Program-made: the position numbers and the translations under genes
Shown: positions 10,440 through 11,508 of the stretch, piece by piece
Numbering within the stretch: the first letter of the stretch is position 1
Layout: the number at the start of each line of letters is the position of its first letter
Source of the DNA: Candidatus Poribacteria bacterium
GTDB taxonomy: Bacteria > Poribacteria > WGA-4E > WGA-3G
DNA: 64,000 nucleotides
Reading direction: 5' to 3'
Assembly (NCBI GenBank): GCA_965214045.1
Contig: OZ243935.1
Span: forward strand, 4,354,799-4,418,798
The notes under the pieces: model-generated
What the model was told of the DNA's origin: nothing
Database searches by the model: none
Seen by the model: the letters and a program-made list of their open reading frames with translations, nothing else

Positions 10440-10599
10440 GATAAGCGGTTGGTTCTCTAACGGTTTTCGTGTTCGAGTTGAAGAAACACCCAAGCAAAAA
10501 CCCCGCGCCGTTGTTGCAGGCTGCTATCTTCTAAAAAAGTCAACCACAAGCCCGCAATGAAATGGAGGGCGGATTTAAGGGGTGCCCGTTAAAGTTTTA
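10440..10599 (+). repeat. mosaic interspersed repeat copy (modules D, A, B-inverted, F; module C continues into murQ)
   Basis: It shares 18-22-mers with seven other intergenic sites (see findings). Confidence 0.6.
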
Positions 10600-11508
10600 A
10601 TGCACACAGTTCTCCGGCAAGGTATAATTAAAAAAACGGAACAGCAAAATCTGAATTCTGTTGACATTGATCTGAAGTCAACACCAGAAATCGTCCGGAT
10701 TTTTCACGAAGAAGATCGAAAAGCAGTTGCGGCAGTAGAAGCAGAATCCGAAGCGATTGCCCAGGCTATTGAATTATGCGTTGCGGCCTTTCGCACTGGT
10801 GGCAGGCTATTTTATGTCGGTGCTGGCACAAGTGGCAGACTTGGGGTGTTAGATGCCTCCGAATGTCCACCAACCTTTAGCACACCTCCAGAAATGGTCC
10901 AAGGGATAATTGCCGGTGGGGATGTTGCCTTACGTCGCTCGGTGGAAGGTGAAGAGGATAAGCCTGAAAGAGGAGCACTCGCTGTCCGAGAACGACACCT
11001 CAGATCACAGGATGTGCTCGTCGGAATTGCAAGCAGTGGACGGACACCTTACGTTATAGGGGCTTTAAGGGAAGCACACACCATTGGCGCGAAAACAATA
11101 TTTCTCTGCTGCGTTTCACCTCCTGAGCAACTGAAAGGGTGGGTGACGCATTTCATCACGCCAATCGTCGGTCCGGAGATTATCGCTGGCTCAACCCGAC
11201 TGAAAGCCGGAACAGCCACAAAATTGGTTCTGAATATGTTGACGACTGCTTCTATGATCAAGCTGGGTAAGGTCTACAACAATCTGATGGTAGATGTACA
11301 CGCCTCTAATACGAAACTGGTCGAGCGGAGCATCCGAATTGTTCAAGCCGTCACAGGCGTTGATACTAAAATGGCTGAGGAAGCGTTAACACAAGCAGGC
11401 GGCCGCGCGAAACTCGCCATTGTCATGCTCGCGAAGGGGTTGAATCCAACGGACGCAAACACATTATTAGAAGAACATGAGGGATTTCTGAGGCAAATTC
11501 TTGATTAA
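10600..11508 (+). CDS. murQ: N-acetylmuramic acid 6-phosphate etherase
   Basis: The SIS domain carries GRLFYVGAGTSGRLGVLDASECPPTF, and the gene is MurQ-like throughout. The ATG at 10600 is preferred over the GTG at 10582. The first roughly 12 codons overlap repeat module C. Confidence 0.8.
   Translation: MHTVLRQGIIKKTEQQNLNSVDIDLKSTPEIVRIFHEEDRKAVAAVEAESEAIAQAIELCVAAFRTGGRLFYVGAGTSGRLGVLDASECPPTFSTPPEMVQGIIAGGDVALRRSVEGEEDKPERGALAVRERHLRSQDVLVGIASSGRTPYVIGALREAHTIGAKTIFLCCVSPPEQLKGWVTHFITPIVGPEIIAGSTRLKAGTATKLVLNMLTTASMIKLGKVYNNLMVDVHASNTKLVERSIRIVQAVTGVDTKMAEEALTQAGGRAKLAIVMLAKGLNPTDANTLLEEHEGFLRQILD

What the first reader, a model, noticed from the sequence alone, without database searches (positions are those of the whole stretch)
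10561..10640. Repeat modules F and C recruited into the 5' ends of murQ and tmk: the same composite (F – ATG – C) forms the start and first ~12 codons of two unrelated genes
At murQ the sequence reads GGAGGGCGGATTTAAGGGGTGCCCGTTAAAGTTTTA-ATG-CACACAGTTCTCCGGCAAGGTATAATTAAAAAAACG. At tmk (51497-51580) it reads GGAAGGCGGATTTAAGAAAGGTACCTCAAAC-ATG-AAACTCTCGTCATTTCTCCGCAAGGAAAAATTAAAACGC. In both genes the only plausible in-frame start lies between module F and module C. Module C is therefore translated, as ..VLRQGIIKKT.. in murQ and ..SFLRKEKLKR.. in tmk, before the conserved enzyme core begins. In the other copies module C is untranslated 5' UTR. This suggests a repeat insertion that relocated the start codon and created an N-terminal extension, or a shared leader-peptide-like arrangement.
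Basis: partly seen in the sequence, partly recalled or inferred. Interest (0 to 1): 0.6.

Follow-up and report, generated by a model that had tools for sequence, protein, structure and literature searches.

The report
Repeat cassette rewrites two gene starts
In this sponge-symbiont (Poribacteria) genome an ~88-base repeated leader cassette has overwritten the native start regions of murQ and tmk: tmk gained a short translated N-terminal tail, while murQ most likely now starts at a rare ATT codon inside the repeat, so the two cases are not one shared design.

Summary
The quoted sequences are real. The two regions are homologous (69% over about 88 nt, z=8.6). They belong to a cassette family: hairpin F, a spacer, then the A-rich, ribosome-binding-site-like module C. 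I found 31 copies in 0.58 Mb of Poribacteria DNA, all pointing at the downstream gene. In 14 copies the cassette ends 0-3 nt before that gene's ATG.

The two ATGs sit at non-homologous cassette positions (5 nt apart), and module C is read in different frames.

**tmk:** Native relatives start MARRGI directly after the lactonase gene. Cassette-type relatives (15 protein clusters, 5 DNA loci) all keep the ATG and the reading frame. One has the ATG overlapping another gene's stop codon and no module F. A conserved Gly codon rules out the downstream ATT.

**murQ:** the interpretation does not hold as a general rule.
- Native relatives start MQST.
- Of 12 species with the cassette, 5 have no ATG/GTG/TTG between an upstream in-frame stop and the core, yet core dN/dS is 0.04-0.15.
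- Codon -3 (window ATT 10627) is ATG in one species, ATT in seven and ATA in four.
- ATG 10600 is specific to one sub-lineage. It may be used as well, but it is dispensable.

Verdict: partly supported, a new variant of a known kind, moderate interest.

The parts
10548..10635 (+). Leader cassette copy upstream of and overlapping the murQ start (module F, spacer, module C)
   Evidence: nhmmer match to the cassette profile, positions 2-89, E=2e-16. Alignment with other copies.
10550..10570 (+). Module F hairpin of the murQ copy (GCCC ... GGGC)
   Evidence: Consensus hairpin over 19 copies, with compensatory pair changes: U-A in 15 copies, C-G in 3. L018 has GCCTTC/GAAGGC where most copies have GCCTGC/GCAGGC.
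10600..10602 (+). It is specific to one sub-lineage and dispensable.
   Evidence: Present in the window, L171 and 18 protein clusters (MHTVL...). Absent at this position in all 11 other species-level cassette alleles. No Shine-Dalgarno-like motif precedes it.
10614..10633 (+). Module C (CCGGCAAGGTATAATTAAAA), with AAGG at 10619-10622
   Evidence: Direct-repeat family D4. The 45 nt upstream of the core are 89% identical among 8 species, while 4-fold sites in the core are 51% identical.
10627..10629 (+). ATT, the most likely murQ start codon (ATA 10624-10626 is the alternative). It would give MKKTEQQN..., 293 aa.
   Evidence: The homologous codon is ATG in L019, ATT in 7 species and ATA in 4. 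Five species have no canonical start upstream. AAGG lies 4 nt upstream, the same spacing as the native AAGGatgcATG. NCBI annotates L001 from ATA as MIKKTEQQN.
10636..11508 (+). murQ conserved core (TEQQN... to the stop codon)
   Evidence: TIGR00274, 400 bits, residues 13-302. Matches solved MurQ structures. dN/dS 0.04-0.15.
51494..51579 (+). Leader cassette copy at tmk (module F 51495-51525, spacer, module C 51560-51579)
   Evidence: nhmmer E=2.5e-19. Alignments.
51541..52185 (+). tmk ORF starting at the ATG in the cassette spacer. Codons 2-13 derive from the cassette (MKLSSFLRKEKLK), followed by RGIFITFEG...
   Evidence: ATG and frame are kept in 5 DNA loci and 15 protein clusters. L165 has the ATG overlapping the stop codon of an unrelated upstream gene, with no module F. 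L164 has TGA two codons upstream of its ATG. The Gly codon 51583-51585 varies only synonymously (GGA/GGG/GGT).
51452..51503 (+). Second module C copy directly after the lactonase stop codon, followed by a fortuitous 10-codon ORF (ATG 51471 ... TAA 51503)
   Evidence: The ATG is absent in the closest relative L168.
50339..50424 (+). Cassette copy ending 1 nt before the lactonase ATG (50426); canonical use of the cassette
   Evidence: The same arrangement is found in L084, L164, L166 and L168. Pfam Lactonase match from residue 13.
62409..62584 (+). Two tandem cassette units; the second ends at the ilvC ATG (62585)
43494..43577 (+). Cassette copy 21 nt upstream of the H+-pyrophosphatase ATG (43599)
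58461..58569 (+). Long-form cassette copy (21-nt insertion in F), about 140 nt upstream of the gene starting at 58709
30412..30431 (+). Module C alone, directly followed by the gamma-glutamyltranspeptidase ATG (30432)

Best explanation
murQ and tmk each carry a copy of an ~88-nt leader cassette at their 5' end. The family is specific to one Poribacteria lineage. A unit consists of a short hairpin (module F), a spacer of about 45 nt, and an A-rich, ribosome-binding-site-like end (module C: CCGCAAGG, then 10-13 A/T-rich nt, then normally ATG). The cassette sits between co-oriented genes and normally supplies the translation-initiation region of the downstream gene.

At both genes a cassette-bearing version of the spacer replaced the native Shine-Dalgarno sequence and start codon. 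The two genes then resolved the loss of the ATG differently.

**tmk.** An ATG inside the cassette spacer (51541) is the start. Module C is therefore translated, giving a basic extension of about 10 residues (MKLSSFLRKEKLK) in front of the normal RGIFITFEG. This is shown by comparison with relatives.

**murQ.** The start is the near-cognate ATT at 10627 inside module C, 4 nt after AAGG, giving MKKTEQQN... This is shown for the 5 related species that have no canonical start, and inferred for the window. The ATG at 10600 arose only in the window's sub-lineage. It may add some initiation, but it is not required.

**What the cassette does** is inferred, not shown: the hairpin may stabilise or process the upstream part of a polycistronic mRNA, and module C may recruit ribosomes independently for the downstream gene.
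For: **Cassette family.**
- 31 copies in 0.58 Mb, all co-oriented with the downstream gene. In 14 copies the unit ends 0-3 nt before that gene's ATG.
- The hairpin shows compensatory changes.
- The 45 nt upstream of the murQ core are 89% identical among species, against 51% at 4-fold sites in the adjoining core.

**murQ.**
- 73 of the best 120 orthologue clusters start MQST/MEST/MQP. The 47 cassette-type clusters have 11 or more different called N-terminal lengths, which is what gene callers produce when they read up through non-coding DNA.
- In 12 species-level cassette alleles, L001, L007, L014, L016 and L022 have no ATG/GTG/TTG between the upstream in-frame stop and the core. L019 has ATG at codon -3. 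The others have ATT (7 species) or ATA (4 species) there.
- L002 has a canonical module C with ATT exactly in the slot normally held by ATG.
- The deletion derivatives L014 and L019 keep only the SD-like motif plus ATA AT[T/G] AAA.
- Core dN/dS is 0.04-0.15.
- The Thr codon of TEQQN varies synonymously, so translation starts upstream of it.

**tmk.**
- Native relatives start MARRGI 10 nt after the lactonase stop codon.
- Cassette-type relatives keep the ATG and a 16-residue lead-in in 15 clusters and 5 DNA loci, with one in-frame +1-codon variant.
- In L165 homology to the cassette begins 5 nt before the ATG, which overlaps the stop codon of a different upstream gene.
- There is no near-cognate codon between the ATG and the conserved Gly codon. 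That codon varies GGA/GGG/GGT.
- Solved Tmk structures tolerate N-terminal tags of about 20 residues at this position.
Against: - No expression data exist for this uncultured organism.
- ATT is part of module C in every copy, so its conservation at murQ is not independent evidence that it is a start.
- AAGG to ATT is only 4 nt, whereas canonical cassette copies place the ATG 10-13 nt after AAGG.
- In the window, L171 and 18 related clusters an in-frame ATG lies 9 codons upstream, and it is fixed in that sub-lineage. It could be the main start there.
- The tmk sample comes mostly from called ORFs, so alleles with a broken extension would be under-sampled.
- In the tmk extension, third codon positions are as conserved as first and second (0.69-0.88, against 0.29-0.39 at 4-fold core sites). 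The substitution pattern therefore shows nucleotide-level constraint rather than coding constraint.
- Cassette-bearing and native alleles are interleaved in both gene trees, and adjacent coding sequence shows no sign of recent exchange. This is not explained.
Confidence: 0.68

Rival explanations
1. One reading: both genes start at the ATG between F and C. murQ of this organism would then be made mainly as the 302-aa form MHTVLRQGIIKKTEQQ..., with module C translated.
For: ATG 10600 is in frame and gives a normal MurQ length of 302 aa. It is present in L171 and in 18 related protein clusters at 89-98% identity. ATG is intrinsically far more efficient than ATT (general knowledge). The region upstream of it is A/U-rich.
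Against: No SD-like motif precedes ATG 10600. The ATG is absent at that position in the 11 other cassette-bearing species, 5 of which have no canonical start at all. Among close relatives the 9 codons show only non-synonymous differences (L/F, P/R, I/K).
Confidence: 0.3
2. Module C is a promoter -10 element (TATAAT/AAAAAT), and the cassette drives leaderless or very short-leader transcripts. The ATG-containing spacer would then lie upstream of the transcript.
For: TATAAT or a similar hexamer lies 5-7 nt before the ATG in canonical copies. A sigma-70-like TGCACA-16-TATAAT site lies at 10601-10628.
Against: There is one promoter-like hit against 0.7 expected by chance, and none at tmk or ilvC. 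No conserved -35 element is present. At murQ and tmk the implied transcript start would fall after the only usable start codons. In L019 the ATG overlaps the hexamer. Cassettes sit between co-oriented genes that are closely packed in relatives lacking the cassette.
Confidence: 0.1
3. F - ATG - C is a shared regulatory leader peptide or upstream ORF that controls both genes.
For: There is an ATG between F and C in both window copies, and a 10-codon ORF follows the upstream C copy at 51471.
Against: The ATGs are at non-homologous positions and in different frames. There is no stop codon before the enzyme core. The murQ ATG is missing in most orthologues. The mini-ORF ATG is missing in L168. Nothing in Rfam matches the region. 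RNA folding of both regions is no better than shuffled sequence, with z = +0.5 and +1.5.
Confidence: 0.03
4. Cassette-type murQ genes that lack a canonical start are decaying pseudogenes, so no unusual start codon needs to be invoked.
For: Loss of the ATG and in-frame stop codons upstream.
Against: All have intact 290-codon cores. dN/dS is 0.04-0.15 at dS of 0.4-1.8, including pairs made up only of start-less species. The five start-less alleles come from five independent assemblies, two of them complete chromosomes.
Confidence: 0.03

Closest known systems
Rickettsia palindromic elements (RPE): dispersed repeats inserted in frame into protein-coding genes and translated (from my own knowledge: Ogata et al. 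2000)
   Same: A dispersed, lineage-specific repeat contributes a peptide segment to an otherwise conserved housekeeping enzyme (here Tmk). The segment is dispensable, because relatives lack it.
   Different: The segment arises at the N-terminus through start-codon relocation, not by internal in-frame insertion. The element is not a long palindrome. Its normal place is non-coding, just before start codons.
REP/BIME intercistronic repeats of enterobacteria
   Same: A short imperfect palindrome is repeated between co-transcribed genes. Units occur in tandem and occasionally inverted (minus-strand copy at 10521). A plausible role is differential stability or expression within operons.
   Different: The unit has a fixed polarity and carries a ribosome-binding-site-like 3' end that abuts the downstream start codon. 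No link to a RAYT transposase was examined.
Correia/NEMIS elements of Neisseria and BOX elements of pneumococci (modular intergenic repeats that change expression of adjacent genes)
   Same: Modular composition, location at the 5' ends of genes, and presence/absence differences between close relatives.
   Different: No terminal inverted repeats were found, and no target-site duplication was seen. The variant looks like a replaced intergenic haplotype with breakpoints at the gene boundaries, not a simple insertion.
Non-AUG initiation at AUU (E. coli infC and pcnB; from my own knowledge)
   Same: A conserved, functional gene whose only available start is AUU/AUA, at the position where orthologues have AUG.
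   Different: Here the near-cognate start was brought in by a repeat that overwrote the native AUG. No autoregulatory logic (IF3-type) is evident. Not experimentally shown.

Membership tests
Repeat-derived translated segments in ORFs (RPE-like) | The segment belongs to a dispersed repeat family | tested here: met
   31 profile matches in 0.58 Mb of Poribacteria DNA, 7 of them in the window. The murQ and tmk copies are 69% identical, z=8.6.
Repeat-derived translated segments in ORFs (RPE-like) | The repeat is read in frame as part of a functional protein | tested here: inconclusive
   tmk: met by comparative evidence. ATG and frame are kept in 5 loci and 15 clusters, there is the ATGA overlap in L165, and the Gly codon varies synonymously. 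murQ: not met in 5 of 12 species, and optional in the window. No protein-level data.
Repeat-derived translated segments in ORFs (RPE-like) | The whole element is palindromic | tested here: not met
   Only a 4-6 bp hairpin at the 5' end. No inverted repeats of 8 nt or more in either copy. Folding z-scores are +0.5 and +1.5.
MITE (Correia-like) | Terminal inverted repeats and target-site duplication | tested here: not met
   No inverted repeats at the murQ or tmk copies. Junctions fall at the stop codon of the upstream gene and inside the first codons of the downstream gene, so this is a replacement rather than an insertion.
REP/BIME | A short imperfect palindrome repeated in intercistronic regions | tested here: met
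   The F hairpin shows compensatory changes. Copies lie between co-oriented genes: kinase-murQ, lactonase-tmk, thiolase-lactonase and ilvN-ilvC.
REP/BIME | Association with a RAYT (REP-associated tyrosine transposase) | not tested
   No search for such a gene was made.
Non-AUG (AUU/AUA) initiation | A near-cognate codon at the position where orthologues have AUG, with no canonical in-frame alternative, in a gene under purifying selection | tested here: met
   Codon -3 is ATG in L019, ATT in 7 species and ATA in 4. There is no ATG/GTG/TTG in L001, L007, L014, L016 or L022. dN/dS is 0.04-0.15. In the window itself an upstream ATG also exists.
Non-AUG (AUU/AUA) initiation | An experimentally determined N-terminus or initiation site | not testable with these tools
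   The organism is an uncultured sponge symbiont. No proteomic or ribosome-profiling data were available.
Leader peptide / upstream-ORF regulation | A conserved short ORF with its own stop codon upstream of the regulated gene | tested here: not met
   The ATGs are not homologous. The mini-ORF at 51471 is not conserved in L168. No Rfam leader matches the region.

The most novel reading that the evidence does not exclude
The cassette is a previously undescribed kind of portable translation-initiation region: a polar unit of hairpin plus ribosome-binding site that overwrites the native start regions of unrelated housekeeping genes. It would persist as a presence/absence polymorphism shared across Poribacteria species, spread by short-tract recombination or gene conversion. 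As by-products it would force genes onto ATT/ATA starts or give them new N-termini.
Probability: 0.25. Interest if true: 0.7.

Novelty: new variant of a known kind. Interest (0 to 1): 0.45.

Why it matters
- **Annotation.** Gene callers give this murQ at least 11 different N-termini (4 to 39 residues before TEQQN) and miss the probable ATT/ATA start. Only NCBI's call for one genome uses ATA. Any Poribacteria gene preceded by this cassette should have its start re-examined.
- **Biology.** This is a clean natural experiment. The same repeat overwrote two native start regions. One gene recruited a new ATG and gained a basic tail. The other has kept working from a near-cognate codon across species whose synonymous sites are close to saturation.
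- **Evolution.** Cassette-bearing and native 5' ends are interleaved in the trees of both genes, and a third gene shows the same presence/absence pattern. This points to unusually dynamic exchange of intergenic haplotypes among sponge symbionts.

Tried and rejected
- **Exact-protein look-ups.** The two window proteins are not on record.
- **Rfam.** Nothing at the gathering threshold on the cassette copies in the whole-window scan, and nothing up to E=5 on the murQ upstream region. The only hit in the window is a T-box elsewhere.
- **Promoter scan.** One sigma-70-like site at murQ against 0.7 expected, none at tmk, and none on the + strand at ilvC. The promoter reading was not adopted.
- **RNA folding.** The murQ and tmk copies fold no better than shuffles (z = +0.5 and +1.5). 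Only the F hairpin is supported across copies.
- **Metagenome scan for tmk.** It gave one close relative only (L084); the other 79 loci were 44-52% identical. Further tmk DNA therefore came from look-ups of called proteins, which biases the sample towards intact ORFs.
- **Test for recent recombination tracts.** Third-position identity in murQ codons 1-20 is 0.61 for cassette-cassette pairs, 0.59 for native-native pairs and 0.61 for mixed pairs. There is no hitch-hiking signal.
- **Terminal inverted repeats.** None found.
- **Literature.** No paper in the library describes Poribacteria intergenic repeats.
- **ATT 51586 as the tmk start.** Rejected, because the conserved Gly codon just upstream varies only synonymously.
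- **Frameshifting or slippage on the A7-8 run at murQ.** Considered, but the upstream ORF in the start-less species is already in the murQ frame and ends at TAA, so it offers no feed-in.
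Full report
**1. What is in the sequence**

The window comes from a member of Candidatus Poribacteria. The best MurQ and Tmk relatives (85-98% identity) are almost all from Poribacteria genome bins.

The murQ ORF can be read from ATG 10600 or GTG 10582 to 11508. The tmk ORF can be read from ATG 51541 or GTG 51508 to 52185.

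The two upstream regions are homologous. They are 69% identical over about 88 nt, with an alignment score 8.6 standard deviations above shuffles.

**2. The repeat is a polar leader cassette**

Aligning the window copies with copies from relatives defines a unit of about 88 nt:
- a short hairpin, module F (GCCTGC-9 nt-GCAGGC or GCCC-13 nt-GGGC);
- GGAT[A/T]TA[C/A]GGAAAGG;
- a variable spacer;
- module C, CCGCAAGG followed by 10-13 A/T-rich nt.

A long form has a 21-nt insertion in F. The hairpin keeps pairing through changes on both sides: U-A to C-G, and GCCTGC/GCAGGC to GCCTTC/GAAGGC.

A profile of the unit finds 31 copies in 0.58 Mb (the window plus 68 Poribacteria loci). All are co-oriented with the downstream gene. 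All lie in the sub-lineage whose MurQ is 84% or more identical to the window's. None occurs in about 290 kb from more distant Poribacteria.

In 14 copies the unit ends 0-3 nt before the ATG of the downstream gene. In the window these are the lactonase gene (50426) and ilvC (62585, behind two tandem units). In relatives they are the lactonase gene in L084, L164, L166 and L168, a 293-aa protein of unknown function in six loci, and one gene in L018. Module C alone also precedes the gamma-glutamyltranspeptidase ATG at 30432.

So module C normally serves as, or overlaps, the translation-initiation region of the downstream gene.

Nothing in Rfam matches the region. There are no terminal inverted repeats. 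A promoter reading is not supported.

**3. The two ATGs are not the same feature**

In the cassette alignment the tmk ATG lies 23 nt before CAAGG and the murQ ATG lies 18 nt before it. They occupy different columns, and other copies have TCT/TTC or AAAC there. Module C is read in different frames in the two genes. There is no shared F-ATG-C design.

**4. murQ**

Homology to MurQ families and solved structures begins at residue 12-13 of the ATG-10600 product. That product has a normal length of 302 aa, so it is not longer than usual.

Among the best 120 orthologue clusters, 73 start MQST, MEST or MQP directly before TEQQN. The 47 cassette-type clusters end in ...PQGIIKK before TEQQN but have at least 11 different called lengths, from 4 to 39 residues. 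That spread is the signature of gene callers reading upstream through non-coding DNA until they meet any start codon.

DNA from 60 Poribacteria species representatives settles the point.
- **Native state.** The stop codon of the BadF/BcrA-type kinase gene, about 28 nt, AAAGGAtgc, then ATG CAG TCC ACA, with no repeat.
- **Cassette alleles.** Twelve species, including the window, instead carry ...CCGCAAGGTATA ATT AAA AAA before ACG GAA.
- **No canonical start.** L001, L007, L014, L016 and L022 come from five independent assemblies, two of them complete chromosomes. They have no ATG, GTG or TTG between the upstream in-frame stop and the core. In L001, L007 and L022 that stop is a TAA inside the supposed extension.
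- **Fortuitous starts.** The remaining species have starts at different places: -12 (window), -16 (L002), -20 (L020) and -25 (L013, L015, L017).
- **Codon -3.** The codon three positions before Thr (window ATT 10627) is ATG in L019, ATT in seven species and ATA in four.
- **L002.** It has a canonical module C with ATT exactly where other copies have ATG.
- **L014 and L019.** These have lost most of the cassette. They keep only an SD-like motif plus ATA AT[T/G] AAA.

The cores are intact. dN/dS is 0.04-0.15 at dS of 0.4-1.8, including pairs of start-less species. The Thr codon varies synonymously (ACG/ACA/ACT), so translation begins upstream of it.

The only reading that fits all species is initiation at the near-cognate codon -3. 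NCBI's annotation of L001 uses the adjacent ATA, giving MIKKTEQQN. The distance from AAGG to this codon is 4 nt, the same as in the native AAGGatgcATG.

In the window, ATG 10600 is shared only with a sub-lineage (L171 and 18 clusters). No SD-like motif precedes it. I cannot exclude that it is also used there, and I give that about 0.3. It is not the ancestral or necessary start of cassette-type murQ.

The 45 nt before the core are 89% identical among eight species, whereas 4-fold sites in the adjoining core are 51% identical. All three codon positions are equally conserved. This is constraint on the nucleic acid, not on a peptide.

**5. tmk**

Homology to Tmk begins at residue 13-15 of the ATG-51541 product, so the extension here is real.

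Close relatives without the repeat (L084 at 93% and L166 at 91% identity) read: lactonase stop, aaagaggaaa, ATG GAA/GCA CGA CGC GGA ATT. Of the best 120 clusters, 96 start MA[RQ]RGI or similar. Fifteen clusters have MK[PS][ST]SF[LI]RKEKLK[NRS]GI: twelve with 16 residues, one with an in-frame extra codon, and two with a further upstream Met.

Five DNA loci (window, L168, L164, L169, L165) keep the ATG and the frame, although 4-fold sites between them are saturated at 0.29-0.39 identity.
- In L164 a TGA lies two codons before the ATG.
- In L169 module F is degenerate and the AAGG of module C is lost.
- In L165 tmk sits in a different genomic context. Cassette homology starts 5 nt before the ATG, and the ATG overlaps the stop codon of an unrelated upstream gene (ATGA).

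No near-cognate codon lies between the ATG and the Gly codon of RGIF. That Gly is conserved in both allele types and varies GGA/GGG/GGT, so the downstream ATT 51586 is not the start.

The repeat removed the native start, an ATG in the spacer took over, and module C is translated as part of a basic tail of about 10 residues. Solved Tmk structures carry N-terminal tags of about 20 residues at this position, so such a tail should be tolerated.

Two caveats apply. Most of the tmk sample comes from called ORFs. And third positions in the extension are as conserved as the others, so the sequence is still constrained, or homogenised, as a cassette.

**6. Population pattern**

In both genes, cassette-bearing and native 5' ends are interleaved in the gene trees.
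- L001 (cassette) and L008 (native) differ by dS 0.15. L001 and the other cassette alleles differ by 0.48 or more.
- L015 (cassette) is closest to L023 and L026 (native) at dS 0.23-0.24.
- tmk shows the same interleaving.

The murQ cassette allele also shares a locus-specific left part, AAGGACACCGTGTCAGG..., which is found nowhere else in the window. The native allele has its own conserved sequence. Each allele therefore arose once.

Adjacent coding sequence shows no sign of recent co-transfer. Short-tract exchange, gene conversion or a long-lived polymorphism would fit. I could not decide between them.

A third gene shows the same presence/absence pattern: the 293-aa protein two genes downstream of murQ.

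**7. Comparison with known systems and verdict**

- It works like the intercistronic repeats of enterobacteria (REP/BIME) and the modular 5'-proximal repeats of Neisseria and pneumococci. It fails the MITE test because it has no terminal inverted repeats.
- The tmk tail resembles the translated Rickettsia palindromic elements. It arises by start relocation, not by internal insertion.
- The murQ start resembles the AUU starts of infC and pcnB.

None of this is categorically new. The polar hairpin-plus-RBS cassette that overwrites native start regions, and a housekeeping gene kept on ATT/ATA across many species, make a new variant worth recording.

Interest is 0.45.

Noticed in passing
window 59651-60118: A T-box leader (Rfam RF00230, 96 bits) at 59651-59941 lies upstream of an ilvB-like TPP enzyme gene (60119-61810). 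Between them are three perfect tandem 39-nt copies, CTTTTGTAGAGCAAGTTTTCGGTTGGCAAGCTGCACCGA, at 59963-60079.
   Followed up: no
window 10313-10525: An extra segment of about 200 nt in the kinase-murQ spacer is absent from the close relative L171. It contains an inverted long-form copy of module F on the minus strand starting at 10521, so the spacer holds two cassette-related copies head to head.
   Followed up: partly
window 51471-51503: A 10-codon ORF (MCRFLFNRSL*) starts exactly at the end of the upstream module C copy. Its ATG is absent in the closest relative L168, so it looks fortuitous.
   Followed up: yes
window 50271-50318 and 62330-62372: Another shared module follows the stop codons of the thiolase-like gene and ilvN: TAATTTATG...CTGCGCTCC...TTACGCGCAG, with a CTGCGC/GCGCAG hairpin. 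It lies upstream of the cassette copies.
   Followed up: no
L002 4002-4088, L004 6016-6103, L006 6189-6274, L010 7315-7401, L013 6107-6191, L019 6324-6454: A third gene shows the same cassette presence/absence difference between species. It encodes a 293-aa protein of unknown function (MKRF...) two genes downstream of murQ. In these loci the cassette ends at its ATG; in the window the spacer is short.
   Followed up: partly
MurQ and Tmk gene trees (L001-L060, P0121-P0240): Cassette-bearing and native 5' ends are interleaved among closely related species for both genes. For example, L001 and L008 differ by dS 0.15 but have opposite states. Adjacent coding sequence shows no excess similarity. 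The cause (short-tract exchange or old polymorphism) is unexplained.
   Followed up: partly
window 10601-10628: A sigma-70-like site, TGCACA-16 nt-TATAAT, has 10 of 12 matches. Its -35 element overlaps ATG 10600. The implied transcript start would fall after ATT 10627. One hit against 0.7 expected by chance.
   Followed up: yes
L167 1480-1520: In one relative, tmk keeps the native length but is preceded by a module-C-like GGAGGGATTAAAAATAAAAAA and starts at GTG (VTQRGI). The gene caller extended it upstream to MLLVHIGGIKNKK...
   Followed up: partly
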